Below are positions 14,960-56,842 of a stretch of 64,000 nt of DNA, piece by piece. A model generated the notes under the pieces. That model searched no databases and had not been told where the DNA came from. It saw nothing but the letters and a program-made list of their open reading frames with translations. This stretch comes from Candidatus Poribacteria bacterium. GTDB lineage: Bacteria; Poribacteria; WGA-4E; PCPOR2b. The stretch lies in assembly GCA_965215015.1 (NCBI GenBank), contig OZ244042.1, positions 4,000,001 to 4,064,000 of the forward strand, read 5' to 3'. The stretch's first letter is position 1. The number at the start of each line of letters is the position of its first letter. The position numbers and the translations under genes are program-made.

Positions 14960-15233
14960 TTGAAATCGTAGACAAAATGGGGTATACTTATCTTGTCTTT
15001 CGTGGGAGATTTTCACCCCTATCGCACGATGGGGGTTCCCACACCCTCGTGAAATAGGTACGAAAGATAGAAAGCCCCTCTGATGAAAACCTACAATTTC
15101 AAGATGTATAGCCCTCACGGCAACCGTAAATTGCAAAAAACGATTGATGCCCACGCTGAAGTCTGGATAGAGCAATTCTAAGTCTAAAGGAATAAGTAAG
15201 AATCCCAACCCTTTTGGCTTGGGAATATGTTAA
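14960..15233 (+). mobile_element. Internally deleted IS200/IS605 (tnpB) element
   Basis: TTGAAA-17-TATACT promoter; structured leader; mini-ORF 15083-15181 MKTYNFKMYSPHGNRKLQKTIDAHAEVW (TnpB N-terminus-like); right-end hairpin GAATCCCAACCCTTTTGGCTTGGGAATATGTTAA. Confidence 0.75.
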
Positions 15234-38089: not shown

Positions 38090-39115
38090 ATGGCAAAAAT
38101 AACTCCCCGTTTTTTGACTGCGGAACGTGGTGTCGAATACCTATTGAAGCAAACGCCCCCCCTGCATTTCGCCGGAACATCAAAGACAGAATGGCAGGAG
38201 TGGCGAAAAGCTTTTCGACGTAAGTTAGTCAAAGACCTCGGTCCAAAACCAGAAGCCATCCCCCTAGAAGTCGAAGTGTTAGAACGGACAGAGATGGACG
38301 GATATATGCGTGAAAAGATTATTTTCAATCCCGATCCTTTTTCTTCTATTCCTGCTTATGTTTTGAGCCCCGAGGGGGCAGATCCGGACAATCAGTGTCC
38401 GGCAGTACTTTGTGCACACGGACACGGAATTGGAAAGGATCCGCTCGCTGGGTTAGGTGAGGATTATCAGAAACAGTTTGCCGTCGAGTTGGCGCGGCAG
38501 GGATTCGTTACGATTGCACCCGACTGGCGCACTTTTGGTGAACGCAAAGATCGGGATGAATGGGTTCGCCATCCCGGACGTGACGGCTGCAATGTCGCCT
38601 ACATGGCATACGGCTACTTCGGATATCAACTGCTCCAACTCGATATCTGTGATGCACAACGATGTCTAGACTACCTACAATCTCGACCCGATGTGAATGG
38701 GAAAAAGCTTGGCTGCATGGGTTGTTCGTTTGGCGGGACAATGACAACCTACGTTTCTGCGTTGGATCAGCGAATCAGGGCAGCTGTTATCGTTTGCTAC
38801 CTCAGTACCTTGACCGATGCGCTTAATGACCGGGGACGTGGAAATACGTGCGGCTCCCAGTTCATGTTTGGGTTGCGTGGGCACGGTGACATCTCAGATG
38901 TTGCTGGCTTAATTGCACCACGTCCCTGCATGGCGCAAATAGCATCTGACGATAATTGCTTCATCGCGGCGGATGCCAAAAGTGCGTTCGACCATCTTGA
39001 GCAGATTTATGCTGCCTCTGGTCGTCCAGCTAACCTTGAACTGGATTACTTTGAAGGAGGACATGAGGTTGATGTTGCCCCGGGTCTCGCCTTTCTCAAG
39101 AACCATTTGATGTAG
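38090..39115 (+). CDS. Alpha/beta hydrolase (dienelactone hydrolase/acetyl xylan esterase-like)
   Basis: CAHGHG, GCSFGG nucleophile, LIAPRP, GGHE; AGGAGG SD before the ATG at 38090. Confidence 0.87.
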   Translation: MAKITPRFLTAERGVEYLLKQTPPLHFAGTSKTEWQEWRKAFRRKLVKDLGPKPEAIPLEVEVLERTEMDGYMREKIIFNPDPFSSIPAYVLSPEGADPDNQCPAVLCAHGHGIGKDPLAGLGEDYQKQFAVELARQGFVTIAPDWRTFGERKDRDEWVRHPGRDGCNVAYMAYGYFGYQLLQLDICDAQRCLDYLQSRPDVNGKKLGCMGCSFGGTMTTYVSALDQRIRAAVIVCYLSTLTDALNDRGRGNTCGSQFMFGLRGHGDISDVAGLIAPRPCMAQIASDDNCFIAADAKSAFDHLEQIYAASGRPANLELDYFEGGHEVDVAPGLAFLKNHLM

Positions 39116-39400
39116 GCTCTTGAGATGAACCTTGTCGTCAAAGCTACGATTTAAGATAAATCTAGAAAGTTATTTTGAGTCGATCAATTTTCCAAAATCG
39201 AAAATATCGAGAACAGCGCGCTATAGTCCGGTATTTTCAATCTGCTCGGATTATTGCGCGGGGGTCCGGGTGTTTTGTCGAAATATGAATCTCGACCTAC
39301 GGGCTACCTACCGCTTGAGCGCGTAGGTCAGACTAGGAACCCCGCACTGGAATAGATGGCAACTTGAGTTATAATAATTGGTATTCTTTGGAAGGTTATC

Positions 39401-50543: not shown

Positions 50544-52436
50544 TCATTCCAGCAAAATCATCTTCCGGGTATCGCTTTCCCCTTGGAATTCTAGGGTGTA
50601 GAAATAGGTGCCGCTTGCTGCGCGCTCACCGTCAAAATTGCGCCCATCCCAATAAGCGGCACGATGTTTGTCAGAATAATCTCCAGAAGCAAGTTTTCCG
50701 AGTTCAAGAAGGTTAATTAAGTGTCCATCAGCGTTGTAAACCCGAATGGTTACTTGACCGGGGGCTGCCAACTTAAAGGGCATCCACGTTTCCGCATTGA
50801 ACGGGTTAGGGTAATTCGGAAAAAGTTCGCCTTGTTTCAATATGCCCCAAGTCGTTGATAGCAGATTCGGAGCTAGATCGACCGCAATGGGTTTTGGAAA
50901 TCCCGTGTGTCCAAACTGATCGATTAATCTGTTATAGGCGGCTTGTGCACGAATAATGCCGTAACCGGCGATATTATCGGGCTTGTTCGATTGCGAAGCT
51001 GTCATGCGAAGCGCATTGACAATATCCTGCACCGTTGCAAGAGGAAAGGCTTGCATCAGCAACGCAACAACACCAGCAGCGAGAGGCGTCGCAGATGATG
51101 TGCCGCGATAGTCGCTAGAAAAGCCTCCACGCGTGGCTGGATTGATGCTTGTGACGCCTTCACCCATTGCCATCAAATCTGGTTTAATCCGTCGATCAAA
51201 CGTAGGGCCTCGTGAACTAAATGGTAACACCTGTCCATCGCGGTCCACAGCCCCGATTGCAAGAACGTCAAACCCATCTGCGGGGGGAGTAATTCGTCCT
51301 GGCAGTCCACACGCATCGTTTGGCGGCTGGGCACCAAGATTGCCAGCAGCGATAACGACAGGCAGCCCTTTTTGAACGGCGAGGTTTGCAGCAACCGTAA
51401 CTTTTGCGGTTTTCCCATCCAAGTCTGCGAAACGATACCAATCAAAATAACCGAGCGAACTGCTTACCAGATCTGCGCCCATCTCCTCAAGCCACTCAAC
51501 CCCCTCAATCCACCAGTCTTCTTCGATTTTCTCCTCAAACAGGAAACCATTCTGTGAAACTTTCTCCGTTTTTCCGAAGAGGTAGCGGGCCCGGGGGGCG
51601 ACACCGATGAGTTGACCTGGCGCGTCGCCAGCGAGGAGACCCAATATCACTGACCCGTGGTCATCCTGATTTGGATTATCCTGATCCACCTCATCGGCAG
51701 TATTAACGTCATTGTTGACAAAATCGCGTTGGGCAATAACATCTACACGCTCAAGGGCGGTATGTTCCAGATTGAACCCTGTATCCAGTAATCCGATAAC
51801 GATATTCTCCCCGAAAAATCCTTCTTGGTGTAGGAAATCTGCTTGGATTTGTGTAATTTGTGTCCGAGCGGCCCCGTAGTCCAGGGACTGGCCTGGGGAA
51901 GGGGCACTGGGGGACAACGAACCATCAACTGGAAACCTAACAGTCGCTGTGTACCGACGGATGGGATCAATGGCGCGGACACATGGCAGAAGGGCAATCG
52001 CACGAATCTCCTGTGCTGTTGTCTCCAACCCAATGCCATTTAGCCATCGGCTCTTACTGCGGAGTTTTCCTCCCAACCTAAGCACCATCTCAATATAGCG
52101 AGGTTCAATGGGCAAATCTGTGAAGTCCGGACGACTGAGATGTGTACGCAACTCGCGCCGACGCTTTGCCTGACTTGACATTTGGTCTTGATACTGATCT
52201 AACCCCCTTTGTAGGTCTGCCCTCGTCGAAATGCCTTTGTCAGCAAACAGCACCCACACCTTTAGCGTTTCACTAGGAGTATGAAAACGAATGGATGGGG
52301 AAATCTTAAGGTATGGGTTGGGATTCGCTATTGTAGGAGGGGCTGCCATGAATAAGAAGAATGTGAGAATAGAATAAATTAATTGGCAAAGTAGGATTCG
52401 CCGCAGATTCCTAGATTCTTGGGTGCCTATATCCAT
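50544..52436 (-). CDS. S8 (subtilisin) serine peptidase with a FlgD/T9SS-like C-terminal domain
   Basis: LDTG, HGS, AAGN, GTSSATP triad motifs; C-terminal TTWGILK, NYPNPFN, YWDGRN..GE..ASGTYFY. Confidence 0.92.
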   Translation of the reverse strand: MDIGTQESRNLRRILLCQLIYSILTFFLFMAAPPTIANPNPYLKISPSIRFHTPSETLKVWVLFADKGISTRADLQRGLDQYQDQMSSQAKRRRELRTHLSRPDFTDLPIEPRYIEMVLRLGGKLRSKSRWLNGIGLETTAQEIRAIALLPCVRAIDPIRRYTATVRFPVDGSLSPSAPSPGQSLDYGAARTQITQIQADFLHQEGFFGENIVIGLLDTGFNLEHTALERVDVIAQRDFVNNDVNTADEVDQDNPNQDDHGSVILGLLAGDAPGQLIGVAPRARYLFGKTEKVSQNGFLFEEKIEEDWWIEGVEWLEEMGADLVSSSLGYFDWYRFADLDGKTAKVTVAANLAVQKGLPVVIAAGNLGAQPPNDACGLPGRITPPADGFDVLAIGAVDRDGQVLPFSSRGPTFDRRIKPDLMAMGEGVTSINPATRGGFSSDYRGTSSATPLAAGVVALLMQAFPLATVQDIVNALRMTASQSNKPDNIAGYGIIRAQAAYNRLIDQFGHTGFPKPIAVDLAPNLLSTTWGILKQGELFPNYPNPFNAETWMPFKLAAPGQVTIRVYNADGHLINLLELGKLASGDYSDKHRAAYWDGRNFDGERAASGTYFYTLEFQGESDTRKMILLE

Positions 52437-52760
52437 TGTTGTTTAAGGGAACATCTTTATGTCTGCTGCATCTACTTAACCCCCGATTCAGACAATTATT
52501 ATGAGGTCTTAAGGAATCTCTACAAGCGTTTAGCCTTTCGGTGCATCCCACGGCGAGGTTTCCCAAATTTTATTCTATCATATTTATCGGGGAAAAATCA
52601 ACAAAATTAACCCATTGGCCCCAAGCATAAATGCTTGGGCTTGCCTAGATGTTGGTCAAAACAGTGGCAACTCCCGGTAACATTCTTGGGTTATCAAAAT
52701 CTTCCAATCTAAAACCCCGTCATTCGTGGCGAATAAGCGTGTTATAAAGACAAAAAACTA

Positions 52761-52790
52761 TTGAATTCATAGGCAAACATAGTGTATACT
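52761..52790 (+). promoter_or_regulatory. Putative sigma-70 promoter directly upstream of element A
   Basis: TTGAAT-N18-TATACT; predicted +1 (~52796-52797) coincides with the first conserved base of the element. Confidence 0.5.
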
Positions 52791-52795
52791 TCTGC

Positions 52796-53106
52796 TGTCC
52801 ACGGGTTGAGAGGATGAAACATCGGACCCCCTCAATGCTCTCAGCTCTCAACTGCCCGTTGCATTGGGTTGCGTGAATGTGGAAAACACGAGATACCCCA
52901 AAAATATACGCTGAATTGGACTCACTCCTGTGAAAAACCGGTATTCCGATACGGCGTTAAGTTTTGACACAGCATGTGGCTTTGCAGTATCGGTCGCTCT
53001 CACCGGTTTCAGAGCGTTTCCGTAGGGCGCGATGGCCTACGCCGCCGGGTTTGCACGCTGCATTGCCCCCAAAAGAATCCCCGTCTTTAGTGCGGGGAAC
53101 GGTCAA
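52796..53106 (+). ncRNA. Element A: ORF-less structured element ending in an IS605/TnpB-type right end (candidate omegaRNA cassette)
   Basis: Three blocks shared with element B; ends GAATCCCCGTCTTTAGTGCGGGGAACGGTCAA, which resembles the ISDra2 right end GAATCACGCGACTTTAGTCGTGTGAGGTTCAA. Confidence 0.65.
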
Positions 53107-53118
53107 GCCCATAAAAAC

Positions 53119-53148
53119 TTGACACACATTTATTATCTGAAGTAGGAT
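53119..53148 (+). promoter_or_regulatory. Sigma-70 promoter of the TonB-dependent receptor
   Basis: TTGACA-N18-TAGGAT. Confidence 0.55.
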
Positions 53149-53295
53149 ATTTAGCCATCTTAACAGATACCCAGCAACGCGGGTTGCGATTGACAAGTAC
53201 CCAATTCCAGGTAAACGGACCTGTCAATTCTCCGCTGCTGGAGCAGTTCTCAAATACCTAACCTAACACCACCAACTTAGTTAAGGAGTTTAACC

Positions 53296-55893
53296 ATGTA
53301 TCAAACAGGAAAACCGATGCTAATTGCCTGTGCGTTTAGTGTTATTGTGTTACTTCTCGTCCTGTCCACTGCCGTGGCACAGGAATCAACTGAAGCAGAT
53401 ATGTCATCTGAAATGGAAGCTGAAGAAGAGGTTATCGAGCTCGAAGAACAGGTAGTGGTTGGTTCTCGTGGGAAACCGCGTTCTGTCATTGACTCAGCGG
53501 TGCCGATTGATGTTCTCAGCAGCGGTGAGTTCGTCAAGCAAGGAGGTACGGATTTACCGGACCTTCTGAGAAATATTGTTCCCTCTTACAACGTCAATGC
53601 ACAACCTATCAGCGATGCAGCAACCGTCGTGCGCCCTGCGAATTTGCGGGGATTGGCACCCGATCACACCTTGCTACTCGTTAACGGCAAGCGTCGTCAT
53701 CGCGCCTCCGTGATTTCTTGGCTCGGAAATGGATTGGCTGATGGTGCTCAAGGTGCAGATCTATCGCCTATTCCATCCATCGCACTGAAACAGATGGAGG
53801 TACTTCGAGACGGTGCCTCGGCGCAGTACGGGTCCGATGCCATCGCGGGCGTGATGAATTTGCAACTGAAAGATAGCTACAAAGGTGGTTCTTTGCAAAT
53901 CAAACCGGGGGTTTACCAAGCGGGTGATGGTCTATCATATTCTATTGCTGGTAACATCGGTTTAGGGCGAGAGGATCTCTGGACTAACCTCAGCTTGGAA
54001 TACGGTAACGCAGATGAGACGGACCGTTCCGTACAGCGAGATGATGCTGCCGCGCTCATCAAGGCAGGCAATAAAGATGTTGCAAATCCTGCCCAACCTT
54101 GGGGCCATCCGATTATAAGAAACGACCTTAAATTTTTTGGTAACTACGGCGCAGACCTTACTGATGAGATCGAGTTCTACGGGCATGCGAACTACGCACA
54201 GAAGGAGGTCGAAGGCGGGTTTTACTTCCGAAATCCTAATACCCGTGGTGCCGTATTTAGTAACGATGAGGGAGAAACCTTGCTTATCGGGCGTTTGGCA
54301 GGTGATGGGGATATTCCTGAGGTCAAGATAACCGATAATGTCCCAGATCCGGTCGCTTTGCAACAGGTCATTGATGACGAGAATCTTTTTACATTCCAAG
54401 AGATTTTTCCCGGTGGATTCACACCTCGCTTCGGTGCCAATACACAGGATGCTTCTCTCCTCGTTGGACTGAGAGGAACAGTCGCGGAGCAGCTCGGTTG
54501 GGATTTGAGTGGCTCTTACGGACGGCATGCCTCCGATTTCTTTATCAGGAATACCGTCAACGCTTCTCTGGGACCCGAGACCCCCACCGAATTTGATCCG
54601 GGCGATTATATTCAAGCAGATACCAACGTTAATCTTGACCTAACCTACCCACTACATGACATGGTATTCCTTGCTTCAGGAGTAGAATACCGAACAGAAA
54701 GGTTTGAAATTGTGCAGGGACAGGTTGAGTCTTGGGAAATCGGCCCGTTGGCTAGCCAAGGGTTTAGTTCGGGATCGAACGGTTTCCCCGGCTTCAGTGA
54801 TATTGCCGAAGGCACCTGGACTCGGTCTAACTTTGCTGGCTATTTGGAAACTGAGTTGAGGCCGCTTACTTTCTGGCTGGTAGGTGCTGCAGTCCGCGGT
54901 GAATACTTCGACGATTTCGGGAGCACACTCAACTATAAAGTTGCAACGAACTACGGGATAACCGACTCGCTAGCAGAGCTTCTGTCCATTGACTCTATTG
55001 TTAATCTGAGAGTGCGTGGAAGTTACAACACTGGGTTCAGGGCACCGACTCCTGGGCAACAAAACGCCTTTAACGTCACAACTGAATTCGGTGAAAACAA
55101 CACATTGATCAATAGAGGAACCATTCCGTCTACGCATGCTGCAGCGAGTCTGGTAGGTGGCAAGGCACTTGAGCCAGAAAAGTCAAAGAACTTCACTGTT
55201 GGAGCGGTTATCAGCCACAGTCTTGTCAGTCTTACTGTAGACTATTTCAACATCACGGTGGAGGATCGGTTGGCACCTTCCAGAGACTTCACTCGCGGCG
55301 AAGATATAACGGAGGAACAGATTCAGCAGCTGGTGGAGGAAGGTATCACGAGCGCGGCGAACCTTCAAGAGTTCCGATTTTTTACCAATGAGTTTGAAAC
55401 TAGCACCCAAGGTATCGATTTGGTTATCACGGCACCGATAGCGAGAGGTGCGCTGAGTCTCGCTTATAACTACACAGGAACCGAGGTGACCGAATGGAAC
55501 CCGGATATTTTGAACGATGTCCGTGTCAAACTCTTGGAGGAAGGCCTCCCCCGGCACCGCGGCAATGTAACTTTGACACAATCCATTCTCAATAATTTGG
55601 GGGTATTAGGGCGGGTCAATTATTATGGTCCGTGGTATGAGGATGCTGTAGGCGCACAAACCTATGGTAGCGCGTTTTTGGTGGATTTGGAAACGAACTA
55701 CGCAGTTGTCGAAAATGTGTCAGTCACGATGGGTGTTAGCAATGTTCTCAACGTGGAACCGGATAATGTTACCTCCTCTGATCCTGATATTGAAGACTTT
55801 ACTGCTGGAATCGTTGGCAGACCCTTTGGCGAGTACAGTCCATACGGATTTGGTGGTGCGTTCTGGTATGCCAAATGTAACTATAACTTTTAG
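53296..55893 (+). CDS. TonB-dependent receptor
   Basis: Signal peptide, TonB box EEQVVVGSR, plug LRGL.PDHTLLLVNGKRRH and EVLRDGASAQYGSDAIAGV.N, GFRAP, LEPEKS, C-terminal YNF. Confidence 0.95.
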   Translation: MYQTGKPMLIACAFSVIVLLLVLSTAVAQESTEADMSSEMEAEEEVIELEEQVVVGSRGKPRSVIDSAVPIDVLSSGEFVKQGGTDLPDLLRNIVPSYNVNAQPISDAATVVRPANLRGLAPDHTLLLVNGKRRHRASVISWLGNGLADGAQGADLSPIPSIALKQMEVLRDGASAQYGSDAIAGVMNLQLKDSYKGGSLQIKPGVYQAGDGLSYSIAGNIGLGREDLWTNLSLEYGNADETDRSVQRDDAAALIKAGNKDVANPAQPWGHPIIRNDLKFFGNYGADLTDEIEFYGHANYAQKEVEGGFYFRNPNTRGAVFSNDEGETLLIGRLAGDGDIPEVKITDNVPDPVALQQVIDDENLFTFQEIFPGGFTPRFGANTQDASLLVGLRGTVAEQLGWDLSGSYGRHASDFFIRNTVNASLGPETPTEFDPGDYIQADTNVNLDLTYPLHDMVFLASGVEYRTERFEIVQGQVESWEIGPLASQGFSSGSNGFPGFSDIAEGTWTRSNFAGYLETELRPLTFWLVGAAVRGEYFDDFGSTLNYKVATNYGITDSLAELLSIDSIVNLRVRGSYNTGFRAPTPGQQNAFNVTTEFGENNTLINRGTIPSTHAAASLVGGKALEPEKSKNFTVGAVISHSLVSLTVDYFNITVEDRLAPSRDFTRGEDITEEQIQQLVEEGITSAANLQEFRFFTNEFETSTQGIDLVITAPIARGALSLAYNYTGTEVTEWNPDILNDVRVKLLEEGLPRHRGNVTLTQSILNNLGVLGRVNYYGPWYEDAVGAQTYGSAFLVDLETNYAVVENVSVTMGVSNVLNVEPDNVTSSDPDIEDFTAGIVGRPFGEYSPYGFGGAFWYAKCNYNF

Positions 55894-55935
55894 GATTTTG
55901 TCAATGACAGCACGCGGAGGCGTGCCTACTACTAT

Positions 55936-56248
55936 TTGACGTACTCCCAACCCGAAAGGATTGGGATTCCTTTGAATGTCTCCCCGTCCTGGTTTCTTAG
56001 GGGTTACCGTATCTGGTATGGAGCTATTTTCCGGGCCTCGTGGGCGGTTCTTGCGTCAACTCAATAGGCAACACCGAGTGCAAACTCGGCGGCGCAAGCC
56101 ATTTGGCACCCTACGGAAACGTCTGAAACCGGTGAGACCGCCCGATATTGCAAACCCATCCCAATCCTAGACCACGTTTCCCGATGCGATGGGCAGTTGA
56201 GAGCATCGGCGAGGATGTCCGATGTTTTATCCTCTCGACCCGTGGACA
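55936..56248 (-). ncRNA. Element B: inverted paralog of element A
   Basis: Minus strand starts TGTCCACGGGTCGAGAGGATAAAACATCGGAC and ends GGAATCCCAATCCTTTCGGGTTGGGAGTACGTCAA. Confidence 0.65.
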
Positions 56249-56316
56249 CAACAAGTGAAACCCAACACTAATAATCAGCGGGTTGGTTGAATTAGGGGTG
56301 TTGGGTTTCACTTTTT

Positions 56317-56350
56317 TTGACGTACTCCACCCCCTGAAGGGTGGAGATTG
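56317..56350 (-). mobile_element. Solo IS605-type right-end hairpin
   Basis: Minus strand CAATCTCCACCCTTCAGGGGGTGGAGTACGTCAA; last 11 nt identical to the end of element B. Confidence 0.65.
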
Positions 56351-56494
56351 TTATCTGTTAGGGTATCGAATTTATGAGCACCCCTCATTTATGTGAGGGG
56401 TGTCCGTCATTCAAGGCCCGGCATCCAATGGGTTGGGAGCACAACTCCCTACGCATGGAGAGGTGTTAAGAAATAAATACATCAAAAGCTATTT

Positions 56495-56842
56495 AGGAGT
56501 TACGCACTTGAGTTTGTCGTAAGGTAATTCAACCCGCATCACGATAGACCATAAATTGCCCGATAGTAGTAGGCATAAGGGGTATGCCGTACCCCCTAAG
56601 CCCTCCCTCAGTCCCGAATATCCACACGGTATCTCTTCCCCCTGCTTGCGGGGGGACTAAGGGGGGTAGGCTCAATGAGCCAGGACCTGACGGACAACCC
56701 ACCGGATATTTAGCAGGGGGAGGGTACGCGGAGCGTGCCCACTCCTTTGGGATTCTCTGTCGCTGTCCGATTCATCGAGCAACGATGAACATTAGGCACC
56801 CTTTTCTGGTGTTGGCTTCGAGGGTTCAACGGCGTAAGCCCT
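56495..56842 (-). mobile_element. MITE with AGGACTTACGCA-type TIRs, copy 1
   Basis: Ends AGGAGTTACGCACTTGAGTTTGT and GGTTCAACGGCGTAAGCCCT; inverse match to the ends of 62182-62523. Confidence 0.7.

What the first reader, a model, noticed from the sequence alone, without database searches (positions are those of the whole stretch)
52761..56248. Inverted pair of ~312-nt ORF-less structured elements with TnpB-type right ends bracketing a TonB-dependent receptor (candidate orphan omegaRNA cassettes)
Seen: element A (52796-53106, +, 311 nt) and element B (56248-55936, -, 313 nt) share three blocks: TGTCCACGGGTYGAGAGGATRAAACATCGGAC (30/32), GCTCTCAACTGCCCRTYGCATYGGG (22/25) and a ~76-nt block TTTGCARTATCGG..TCTCACCGGTTTCAGA.CGTTTCCGTAGGG..CGCCGCCGRGTTTGCAC. 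Indels between the copies argue against protein coding. Differences in block 3 preserve pairing through G-U wobbles in the A+/B- sense (CGUAGG/CCUACG vs CGUAGG/CUUGCG; UGCAG/UUGCA vs UGCAA/UUGCA), and the loop CACCGGUUUC is invariant. Both end in a GAATCCC-hairpin-GTCAA, and a sigma-70 promoter places +1 at the first conserved base of A. Total lengths are nearly equal although the ~90-100-nt variable segment sits in a different place in each copy. Known: TnpB omegaRNAs (e.g. ISDra2) end in such a right-end hairpin plus TCAA, followed by a guide taken from the flank. Inference: these are non-autonomous guide-RNA-producing elements that would act with a TnpB/TldR encoded elsewhere, or a new structured RNA family; both point their guide ends at the receptor locus.
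Basis: partly seen in the sequence, partly recalled or inferred. Interest (0 to 1): 0.82.

Follow-up and report, generated by a model that had tools for sequence, protein, structure and literature searches.

The report
Two decayed guide-RNA transposon remnants
Two gene-less leftovers of a small jumping-DNA family that carries only a guide-RNA gene sit on either side of an outer-membrane receptor gene; this genome has lost the enzymes they depend on, so they are most likely fossils of a kind of element that is already known.

Summary
A (52796-53106, +) and B (56248-55936, -) share three blocks and both end in a hairpin plus GTCAA. They are the only two copies in the 5.94-Mb genome.

They are ORF-less deletion derivatives of tnpB-only IS200/IS605 elements (PATE/MITE-like).
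- The terminal hairpin is the right end (RE) of that family: 31 copies in this genome, 4 just downstream of tnpB remnants.
- A also keeps a TTAT target, a degenerate left end (LE) and the element's promoter.
- A sister species has 16 copies. Ten near-identical ones show TTATC|LE...RE-GGTCAA| with unrelated flanks.
- Blocks 1-2 are the pseudoknotted 5' leader of the tnpB mRNA.
- Block 3 is the start of the omegaRNA scaffold.
- Both fold with strong covariation.
- The two "variable segments" are different deletions of a ~400-nt ancestor.

This genome has no intact tnpB or tnpA. A and B are the two lowest-scoring family members, and B has no promoter. They are most likely fossils.

I found nothing that links them functionally to the receptor gene.

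The parts
52691..52694 (+). TTAT target/TAM-like tetranucleotide at the left junction of element A
   Evidence: Read. The left junction of 10 of 10 G002 copies reads TTATC. With A removed, the flanks join to a sequence like the G003 orthologous promoter region.
52695..52760 (+). Left end (LE) of element A, subterminal hairpin degenerate
   Evidence: CAAAATCTTCCAATCTAAAACCCCGTC... is nearly identical to the LE of G002 copy L087 and to LEs of tnpB remnants T202 and T531 in the own genome. The hairpin's 3' arm is lost.
52761..52790 (+). Element-borne sigma-70-type promoter (the tnpB promoter of the parent IS), reading towards the receptor gene
   Evidence: TTGAAT-18-TATACT, 9/12. The same position holds TTGATT-17-TATAAT/TATACT in all relatives read and in tnpB-carrying elements. 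Activity is inferred.
52796..52885 (+). A: structured leader (blocks 1-2) with helices P0', P1, P2 and a pseudoknot. Homologue of the 5' leader of L088-type tnpB mRNA.
   Evidence: Covariation: 96.0% of cells paired, 15 of 23 pairs with compensatory change, slid controls 33-51%. A forms 20 of 23 pairs. The tnpB-element profile hits A's relatives L012 (5.6e-13), the G002 copy (4.7e-19) and L025 (1.4e-7), but not A itself.
52869..52980 (+). A: segment V1, a non-coding remnant of the 5' end of the tnpB ORF (ATG at 52877). Absent from B.
   Evidence: In the G002 copy the profile of tnpB-carrying elements aligns through the start codon into the N-terminal coding region, to hmm position 244. ATG is followed by an early stop.
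52981..53067 (+). A: block 3, the omegaRNA-scaffold module (CGG/CCG closing helix and three hairpins). The third hairpin is broken in A.
   Evidence: Model R2 scores 73.0 bits, the lowest of 24 family matches. A forms 16 of 21 pairs against a family mean of 94%. R2 finds the tnpB 3' ends.
53068..53106 (+). A: right end (RE), AAGAATCC-hairpin-GGTCAA
   Evidence: The same RE type is multicopy in G002 and stands behind tnpB remnants T2470 and T2690 in the own genome.
53107..53126 (+). Flank of A that would be the omegaRNA guide. It overlaps the -35 box of the receptor gene's own promoter.
   Evidence: RE ends at 53106 and TTGACA lies at 53119-53124. The 16-mer has no other genomic match at 1 mismatch or fewer, and none preceded by TTAT.
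53119..53148 (+). Native promoter of the TonB-dependent receptor gene (TTGACA-18-TAGGAT)
   Evidence: 10/12 match. Conserved upstream of the orthologues in G003, G005 and G004.
53296..55893 (+). TonB-dependent receptor gene (865 aa). Not part of the elements.
   Evidence: Pfam Plug and TonB_dep_Rec_b-barrel domains. Orthologues found in 20 of 20 genomes of the genus.
55910..55935 (+). REP-like palindrome with GTAG-type tail, abutting B's right end. It would be B's guide.
   Evidence: The 16-mer next to B's RE has 237 genomic matches at 3 or fewer mismatches: 2 exact, 17 with 1, 77 with 2, 141 with 3.
55936..55972 (-). B: right end, AAGGAATCC-hairpin-GTACGTCAA
   Evidence: 31 copies in the own genome, 26 ending in GTCAA and then diverging. 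Four lie 134-173 nt after tnpB Zn-ribbon remnants. nhmmer E 5e-9; R1 E 3.3e-4.
55973..56066 (-). B: segment V2, an extra stretch between block 3 and the RE. Present in full-length relatives, absent from A. By eye it resembles the penultimate part of canonical omegaRNAs.
   Evidence: Alignment and relatives. The resemblance to the ...ACTCCTAAAGGAAC... motif is by eye only.
56067..56154 (-). B: block 3, the omegaRNA-scaffold module
   Evidence: R2 scores 76.2 bits, second lowest of 24. B forms 17 of 21 pairs.
56155..56248 (-). B: leader (blocks 1-2). No LE and no promoter upstream. Starts within about 4 nt of the predicted transcription start.
   Evidence: B forms 18 of 23 leader pairs and its pseudoknot arm is degenerate.
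56255..56318 (+). Conserved terminator hairpin plus T-run of the receptor gene. B lies between the stop codon and this terminator.
   Evidence: The same hairpin lies about 80-110 nt after the stop codon in 11 of 17 orthologous loci of the genus.
56317..56384 (-). Element C: a third, short RE-bearing remnant abutting the terminator's T-run
   Evidence: R1 E 0.0047. It ends ...GGAGTACGTCAA.

Best explanation
A and B are two independently inserted, now decayed members of an ORF-less lineage of IS200/IS605-family elements. The lineage arose by internal deletion of a tnpB-only (IS1341-like) insertion sequence.

**Layout of a full member (about 530-550 nt)**
- TTAT(C) target
- left-end hairpin
- the tnpB promoter
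- the pseudoknotted tnpB mRNA leader (blocks 1-2)
- about 100 nt of dead N-terminal tnpB coding sequence (V1)
- the omegaRNA scaffold that normally overlaps the 3' end of tnpB (block 3)
- a further scaffold stretch (V2)
- the right-end hairpin ending in GTCAA

**How it works where partners exist (e.g. G002; inferred)**
- A Y1 TnpA supplied in trans moves the element as single-stranded DNA into TTAT sites.
- The promoter makes a leader-omegaRNA transcript.
- A TnpB supplied in trans would process and load that transcript, using the flank beyond GTCAA as its guide. This lets the protein-less element share in TnpB-driven retention.

**State in this genome**
- No intact tnpB or tnpA is left.
- A has lost V2, its LE hairpin and scaffold hairpin 3.
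- B has lost its LE, promoter and V1.
- Both are therefore fossils.
- A landed 12 nt upstream of the receptor promoter's -35 box. B landed between the receptor's stop codon and its terminator.
- The only plausible present-day effect is read-through from A's retained promoter into the receptor gene. This is untested.
For: **Shown**
- RE identity: 31 copies of B's terminal hairpin, 26 ending in GTCAA followed by unrelated sequence. Four lie 134-173 nt after tnpB remnants. A's RE type stands behind tnpB remnants T2470 and T2690.
- Mobility in a sister species: 10 G002 copies at 90-100% identity. All 10 have TTATC at the left junction and GGTCAA at the right, with unrelated flanks.
- Family census with model R2 in 20 genomes of the genus: 24 matches at E<=0.001 in 5 genomes (G002 16, G018 4, G019 1, G015 1, own 2). 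A and B score lowest, 73.0 and 76.2 bits against 85.9-102.5.
- No room for an ORF. Transcription start to RE is 311-453 nt in every copy where both ends were found (A, B, and copies from G002 and G018). The G015 copy also has no ORF between LE and RE.
- LE, promoter and leader homology to tnpB-carrying elements: E 4.7e-19, 5.6e-13 and 1.4e-7 for three relatives. A is 77% identical to L012 over positions 1-260.
- Block 3: R2 searched on 49 tnpB loci (151,204 bases) gave 14 matches at E<=10. All 14 lie at the 3' end of L088-type tnpB, same strand, full length, best E 7.7e-4. They fall in 14 of 22 loci of that type and in 0 of 27 loci of other types.
- Covariation: block 3 is 94.0% paired with 10 of 21 compensatory pairs. 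The leader is 96.0% paired with 15 of 23.
- Insertions: A's flanks rejoin to the G003 promoter-upstream sequence. B sits inside a spacer that is about 80-110 nt long in 11 of 17 relatives. None of the 19 orthologous receptor loci holds blocks 1-3.
- No partners in the own genome. Many partners in sister genomes: TnpB matches 101, 76, 19 and 20; Y1 matches 10, 8, 3 and 2.

**Literature**
- PATEs that encode omegaRNAs needing TnpB in trans: Meers et al., passages read.
- TnpB processes its own mRNA into omegaRNA: Nety et al., title and start of abstract only.
Against: - A itself is not hit by the omegaRNA model R1 built from 22 tnpB-linked sequences. B is hit only through its RE hairpin.
- nhmmer with the same alignment finds only the RE (B, L012, two G002 copies) and nothing in A.
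- The tnpB leader profile does not hit A or B directly. Their assignment rests on their relatives.
- 13 of the 14 R2 matches have E 0.063-0.69. The 14 loci are homologous to one another, so they are not independent. 8 of 22 L088-type loci gave no match.
- The leader part of the nhmmer alignments has low posterior probabilities.
- No expression data exist.
- Two sole copies lying 3 kb apart around one gene is improbable a priori (about 1e-3) and is not explained.
- B's lack of an LE means it is not, as it stands, a simple TnpA product.
- If the leader only controlled tnpB translation, its conservation by compensatory change in ORF-less copies is unexpected.
Confidence: 0.85

Rival explanations
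1. A and B are still-functional orphan guide-RNA genes. They are transcribed and used by a TnpB- or TldR-like protein encoded elsewhere in this genome, for example to regulate the receptor locus.
For: - A keeps a promoter with conserved position.
- The scaffold helices are largely intact: 16-17 of 21 pairs in block 3 and 18-20 of 23 in the leader.
- A's would-be guide overlaps the receptor promoter's -35 box.
- Domesticated TnpB repressors with guide RNAs are known (TldR paper; search listing only).
Against: - No intact tnpB-like gene. 19 of 19 Zn-ribbon and 4 of 4 RuvC-domain matches lie in open frames of 109 aa or less, and tblastn with 5 TnpB queries aligns at most 166 aa.
- B has no promoter.
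- A's third hairpin is broken and V2 is missing.
- The flank next to an RE is preceded by ...GTCAA, not by the TTAT motif. No other TTAT-preceded match to A's 16-mer exists.
- B's flank is a REP-like repeat.
Confidence: 0.05
2. The conserved core is a cis-regulatory RNA (riboswitch or leader) or an independent small-RNA family belonging to the receptor gene or its neighbours. This includes the opposite-strand reading, in which A(-) and B(+) would lead into the S8 peptidase gene and the downstream sensor operon.
For: - A lies upstream of the receptor gene in sense.
- Covariation is strong.
- There is no Rfam match, so the RNA would be new.
Against: - Orthologous receptor loci in relatives lack the core (0 of 19 loci).
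- The family sits at unrelated sites with transposon junctions.
- The receptor has its own conserved promoter downstream of A.
- The promoter orientation and the G-U pairs fix the sense as A+/B-: 94.0% against 82.7% paired.
- B lies inside the receptor's 3' untranslated region, in antisense.
Confidence: 0.03
3. The inverted pair is a functional unit: a composite transposon or an invertible/recombining cassette that moves or flips the receptor gene.
For: The only two copies in the genome lie in inverted orientation around one gene, 3.1 kb apart.
Against: - The receptor gene is at its ancestral locus. The S8 peptidase gene lies upstream in G003, G004 and G005, and the protoglobin kinase gene downstream in G015, G005, G008 and others.
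- A and B belong to different subfamilies with different RE hairpins and are only about 85-90% alike over short blocks.
- IS200/IS605 elements are not known to form composite transposons (recalled).
Confidence: 0.03

Closest known systems
PATEs (palindrome-associated transposable elements): protein-less IS200/IS605 derivatives, some carrying omegaRNAs (Meers et al., bioRxiv 10.1101/2023.03.14.532601; passages read)
   Same: - LE and RE hairpins shared with tnpB and tnpA-tnpB elements of the same genomes.
- No ORF.
- Multicopy with a conserved target motif.
- An omegaRNA-type module abutting the RE that would need TnpB in trans.
   Different: - This family also keeps the tnpB promoter and a roughly 90-nt pseudoknotted tnpB leader, both maintained by compensatory changes.
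- The two copies in the window are decayed and sit in a genome without partners.
- Whether the published PATEs have their own promoters I could not see, because figures and supplements are not held.
TnpB omegaRNA / right-end RNA of IS200/IS605 and IS1341-type elements (e.g. ISDra2; Karvelis et al. 2021 in the search listing; details recalled)
   Same: A structured scaffold that overlaps the 3' end of tnpB and runs to the RE boundary, with the guide taken from the flank. Block 3 aligns to that place in L088-type tnpB.
   Different: - No tnpB in cis.
- The scaffold carries an extra segment (V2) in most copies.
- Homology beyond the RE hairpin is statistically weak.
- No binding or cleavage data.
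TldR (nuclease-dead TnpB) guide RNAs used as transcription factors (bioRxiv 10.1101/2023.11.30.569447; search listing and start of abstract only)
   Same: A guide-RNA gene of TnpB ancestry placed next to a host promoter.
   Different: No TldR or TnpB gene in this genome. The guide-equivalent is simply the insertion flank. No second target was found.
IS200 tnpA leader stem-loop that hides the ribosome-binding site (recalled, not checked here)
   Same: A structured 5' leader of a transposon gene. In L088-type tnpB the 3' arm of the outer helix (ACCGAAAGGACA) lies just upstream of the ATG and holds an AAAGGA, a Shine-Dalgarno-like motif.
   Different: - A different gene (tnpB) and a different fold, with a pseudoknot.
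- The structure is kept in ORF-less copies, where there is nothing to translate.

Membership tests
IS200/IS605-family non-autonomous element (PATE/MITE-like) | Subterminal hairpin at the right end, with the element ending at a fixed short motif | tested here: met
   A and B end in hairpin-GTCAA. 26 of 31 own-genome copies of B's RE end in GTCAA and then diverge. 10 of 10 G002 copies end in GGTCAA.
IS200/IS605-family non-autonomous element (PATE/MITE-like) | Left end with a related hairpin, inserted 3' of a conserved tetra/pentanucleotide without target duplication | tested here: inconclusive
   The family meets it: TTATC plus an LE hairpin in 10 of 10 G002 copies and in G015. A has TTAT and an LE whose hairpin is degenerate. 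B has no LE at all.
IS200/IS605-family non-autonomous element (PATE/MITE-like) | No protein-coding gene; ends shared with autonomous or tnpB-bearing elements of the same genomes | tested here: met
   No ORF over 79 aa. In G002, LE and RE matches lie beside tnpA-tnpB pairs (G002 near 284400-286055 and 3293503-3295321). LE and promoter are shared with L088-type tnpB elements.
IS200/IS605-family non-autonomous element (PATE/MITE-like) | Multicopy, with evidence of insertion (empty sites) | tested here: met
   16 copies in G002. A and B are absent from 19 orthologous receptor loci. Empty-site-like sequences in G003 for A and in 11 of 17 relatives for B's spacer.
TnpB omegaRNA | Scaffold directly upstream of the RE boundary, on the strand of tnpB | tested here: met
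   Block 3 and the RE are in the same order and strand in all 24 family matches. The sense is fixed by the promoter and by G-U pairs.
TnpB omegaRNA | Sequence/structure homology to omegaRNAs that are linked to tnpB genes | tested here: inconclusive
   RE hairpin: yes (B E 5e-9; 3.3e-4). Block 3: R2 gave 14 of 14 matches at the tnpB 3' end, best E 7.7e-4, the rest 0.063-0.69. The reverse model R1 does not find A and aligns only B's RE.
TnpB omegaRNA | Conserved secondary structure supported by covariation | tested here: met
   94.0% of cells paired, 10 of 21 pairs compensatory, 0 of 500 shuffles reach the covariation score, slid controls 31-60%.
TnpB omegaRNA | A cognate TnpB available in the same cell | tested here: not met
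   Own genome: every tnpB match lies in an open frame of 109 aa or less, and tblastn alignments reach at most 166 aa. Sister genomes have many intact copies.
TnpB omegaRNA | Transcribed, processed and bound by TnpB; guide directs cleavage next to a TAM | not testable with these tools
   No RNA run is listed for this organism. No biochemical data.
Any Rfam family (including the IS605-orfB motifs, whose presence in Rfam is recalled) | Match at or near the gathering score | tested here: not met
   0 matches at gathering score in the window. Only two chance-level matches elsewhere in 52600-56500 at E<=10.
Riboswitch / cis-regulatory leader of the receptor gene | Conserved upstream of orthologous genes | tested here: not met
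   0 of 19 orthologous receptor loci from 19 relatives hold blocks 1-3.

The most novel reading that the evidence does not exclude
The family is a self-sustaining lineage of protein-less, guide-RNA-only transposons. After losing tnpB it has kept, by compensatory evolution across at least five species, both the omegaRNA scaffold and the pseudoknotted tnpB leader. The leader would then have an RNA-level role (processing, stability, or loading onto a TnpB supplied in trans) rather than a role in translation. These elements would be hyperparasites of TnpB-bearing insertion sequences. In this genome, A's surviving promoter, 12 nt from the receptor promoter, might still alter receptor expression.
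Probability: 0.3. Interest if true: 0.55.

Novelty: new member of a known kind. Interest (0 to 1): 0.3.

Why it matters
- For this window it matters little. The pair is explained as transposon debris, and the receptor gene keeps its own promoter and terminator.
- The wider family gives a clean natural example of guide-RNA-only IS200/IS605 derivatives with their own promoter.
- It also reveals a pseudoknotted leader upstream of one tnpB family. My two literature searches found no description of such a leader (listings only).
- If that leader acts in omegaRNA biogenesis, it would bear on how TnpB ribonucleoproteins are made and on the design of compact TnpB editors.

Tried and rejected
**Tried without result, or rejected**
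- Rfam at gathering score on the whole window, and at E<=10 on 52600-56500: nothing relevant.
- Opposite-strand reading (A- and B+ as leaders of the neighbouring genes): rejected on the conserved promoter orientation and the G-U pairs.
- Riboswitch of the receptor gene: rejected, because the core is absent from 19 orthologous loci.
- Model R1 (tnpB-linked omegaRNAs) and nhmmer on A and B: only RE-level matches, none for A.
- A first mixed alignment of two omegaRNA types (A2) was not used for a model.
- Search for second targets of the would-be guides:
  - A's 16-mer has 1 exact match (itself), 0 with 1 mismatch, 1 with 2 and 55 with 3. None is preceded by TTAT.
  - B's 16-mer is a REP-like repeat.
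- Expression: no RNA holder is listed. Read laying was not used, because contigs cannot show expression.
- Structure prediction, protein database searches and the complex predictor were not needed.
- Figures and supplements of Meers et al. were not visible. They may show whether published PATE omegaRNAs have their own promoters.
- I did not resolve why both copies flank one gene.
- I also did not resolve how B lost its LE and promoter. Inference only: an ACTT..ACTT microhomology deletion after insertion at the TTAT next to the terminator.

Full report
**1. The observation**

The region was read and A(+) was aligned with B(-).
- The three blocks are there: 30/32, 22/25 and a ~76-nt block.
- Both elements end in GAATCC-hairpin-GTCAA.
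- Each carries a roughly 100-nt segment that the other lacks.
- No ORF longer than 79 aa overlaps them.
- The window is G000:C1:4000001-4064000 of a single-contig 5.94-Mb genome. BLAST of A and B against it finds blocks 1-3 only in A and B.
- Rfam gives nothing.

Neighbouring genes:
- S8 peptidase, 50544-52436 (-)
- TonB-dependent receptor, 53296-55893 (+)
- a 94-aa ORF
- a protoglobin histidine kinase
- a sigma-54 response regulator

**2. The terminal hairpin is a transposon right end**

The last 34 nt of B recur 31 times in the genome.
- 26 copies end in GTCAA and diverge immediately after it.
- Four lie 134-173 nt downstream of TnpB Zn-ribbon matches.
- A's hairpin type stands behind two other tnpB remnants (T2470, T2690). 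It is multicopy in sister genome G002.

Many own-genome "tnpB" matches are LE-to-tnpB-3'-end deletion derivatives (T202, T531; a clean one at G000:1111012-1111370). Internal deletions that spare the omegaRNA region are therefore recurrent in this genome.

**3. The family in relatives**

In G002 a 561-nt query around the A-type RE finds 10 copies at 90-100% identity, plus further diverged ones. Aligning the 10 with their flanks gives the element:
- variable flank, then TTATC
- an LE hairpin
- TTGATT-17-TATAAT
- TGTCTACGGG... (block 1), continuing to block 3
- an RE hairpin ending GGTCAA, then variable flank

A has the same left part: TTAT at 52691-52694, an LE that is nearly identical to that of copy L087 over its first ~30 nt but has a degenerate hairpin, and the promoter at 52761-52790.

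The full-length relative L012 (G002) contains both variable segments. A has lost V2 and B has lost V1, so the equal lengths are coincidence.

Model R2, built from block 3, finds 24 copies in 5 of 20 genomes of the genus: G002 16, G018 4, G019 1, G015 1, own 2. Only 150 candidates per genome were scored. A (73.0 bits) and B (76.2 bits) are the two weakest; the others score 85.9-102.5. None of the copies I read, including G015's, has room for an ORF.

**4. What the blocks are**

*Blocks 1-2 and V1.* The LE and promoter of the family match those of a tnpB-carrying family, called L088-type here. That family is present in 18 of 20 genomes of the genus.

A profile was built only from LE, promoter, leader and the start of tnpB in tnpB-carrying elements. 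Its hits:

| Target | E-value | Extent |
|---|---|---|
| G002 copy | 4.7e-19 | through the ATG into the N-terminal coding remnant |
| L012 | 5.6e-13 | through blocks 1-2 |
| L025 | 1.4e-7 | promoter and blocks 1-2 |
| A, B | no hit | see below |

A is tied in through its 77% identity to L012. So blocks 1-2 are the tnpB mRNA leader, and V1 is dead 5' coding sequence.

Both groups show the same architecture:
- an outer helix between the 5' end and the stretch just before the ATG
- helix P1
- an inner hairpin P2
- a pseudoknot between the P1 loop and the sequence 3' of P1

On 12 ORF-less copies, 96.0% of cells pair and 15 of 23 pairs show compensatory change. Slid controls give 33-51%.

*Block 3.* By eye it mirrors the start of the L088-type omegaRNA, which lies inside the last ~90 nt of the tnpB ORF: GUAUCGG, hairpin, a hairpin with an AUGGC loop, then another hairpin. 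Formal tests are mixed.
- Against: model R1, built from 22 tnpB-linked omegaRNAs, finds B only through its RE (E 3.3e-4) and does not find A. nhmmer agrees.
- For: model R2, built from 12 ORF-less copies, was searched on 49 tnpB loci (151,204 bases). It gives 14 matches at E<=10.
  - All 14 are full-length, on the tnpB strand and exactly at that place.
  - They fall in 14 of 22 L088-type loci and in 0 of 27 loci of other types.
  - The best E is 7.7e-4; the rest are 0.063-0.69.

I read this as real but distant homology.

The module itself is well supported: 94.0% of cells paired, 10 of 21 pairs compensatory, slid controls 31-60%. On the opposite strand only 82.7% would pair. Together with the promoter, this fixes the sense as A+/B-.

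**5. State in this genome**
- TnpB: all 19 Zn-ribbon and all 4 RuvC-domain matches lie in open frames of 109 aa or less. tblastn with five TnpB queries aligns at most 166 aa.
- Y1 transposase: 2 matches, one with an internal stop and one in a 91-aa open frame.
- Sister genomes, by contrast, have 19-101 TnpB matches, many in open frames of 380-480 aa, and 2-10 Y1 matches.
- A forms 16 of 21 and B 17 of 21 block-3 pairs. A's third hairpin is broken. B lacks a promoter and an LE.
- No RNA data exist for this organism.

Both elements are therefore best read as fossils.

**6. Relation to the receptor gene**

The receptor gene is ancestral at this locus.

A is inserted after a TTAT, and its RE ends 12 nt upstream of the receptor's conserved -35 box. 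With A removed, the flanks resemble the G003 sequence.

B lies between the stop codon and a terminator hairpin. That hairpin follows the stop by about 80-110 nt in 11 of 17 relatives. In those relatives a TTAT sits right next to the terminator stem.

B starts within about 4 nt of the predicted transcription start. A deletion between two ACTT microhomologies after a normal insertion would explain this, but that is inference.

A and B have different RE subtypes, so neither is a recent copy of the other.

A's would-be guide has no second target. B's would-be guide is a REP-like repeat with 237 matches at 3 or fewer mismatches.

I found no evidence of a functional link. The co-location remains a mild oddity.

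**7. Comparison with what is known**

Meers et al. (passages read) state that PATE elements often encode omegaRNAs that must be acted on in trans by TnpB. Nety et al. (listing only) report that TnpB processes its own mRNA into omegaRNA. That fits a leader-omegaRNA fusion transcript as a substrate.

The finding is thus a new member of a known kind. What I did not find described is the pseudoknotted tnpB leader and its maintenance in ORF-less copies. This rests on two searches, with listings only.

**8. Verdict**

Interest is low to moderate at 0.3, and my confidence in the fossil-PATE reading is 0.85.

Noticed in passing
window 55910-55935, and genome-wide in G000: A REP-like repeat: a GGCACGC..GCGTGCC palindrome with a GTAGTAG tail. 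The 16-mer beside B's right end has 237 matches at 3 or fewer mismatches, 19 of them at 1 or fewer. The same motif appears upstream of the receptor gene in G005. The two Y1_Tnp matches in G000 could be related REP-associated transposases. This was not examined.
   Followed up: partly
window 56317-56384 (-): Element C: a short right-end-only remnant (hairpin plus GTACGTCAA) inserted directly against the T-run of the receptor gene's terminator. R1 E 0.0047.
   Followed up: partly
window 15101-15233 (+); also 39086-39172 (-): Further matches of the tnpB-linked omegaRNA model R1 in the window. 15101-15233 (E 6.4e-5) has a typical right-end hairpin ending GTTAA. 39086-39172 (E 0.0014) looks doubtful.
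   Followed up: no
L120-L149 (e.g. L128:406-500), 5' of L088-type tnpB genes in many genomes of the genus: A conserved leader of about 90 nt upstream of this tnpB family.
- Its 5' end (UGUCUUUCGGU) can pair with ACCGAAAGGACA just before the ATG. That stretch holds an AAAGGA, a Shine-Dalgarno-like motif.
- A pseudoknot covaries between genomes: GUGUCA/UGACAC, UUCGA/UCGAA, AUACCG/CGGUAU.
- It may control tnpB translation, or act in RNA processing.
   Followed up: partly
G000:C1:1111012-1111370 (-) (locus L148): A clean internal-deletion derivative of an L088-type element: LE, the first ~30 codons of tnpB fused to the last ~35 codons, the omegaRNA region and the RE. It shows how the A/B family could have arisen.
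   Followed up: partly
window 53296-55893 against its neighbours: The receptor protein is only 64-72% identical to its orthologues in the genus. The adjacent kinase is 83-88% identical (G015, G005, G008) and the peptidase 73-80% identical (G003, G004, G005). The receptor gene evolves faster or has been exchanged. G003 has two receptor genes in tandem.
   Followed up: no
window 56245-56260, left boundary of B: B begins within about 4 nt of the position where the family's transcripts are predicted to start, with no LE and no promoter. Both the flank and the family's -10 region share ACTT. A microhomology deletion is my guess; an RNA-mediated origin is not excluded.
   Followed up: partly
G000 genome-wide: At least one other ORF-less family carries the same right end but a different upstream scaffold. 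Examples are the copies ending at 2126829, 2268109, 4691188, 4971498 and 5808816.
   Followed up: no
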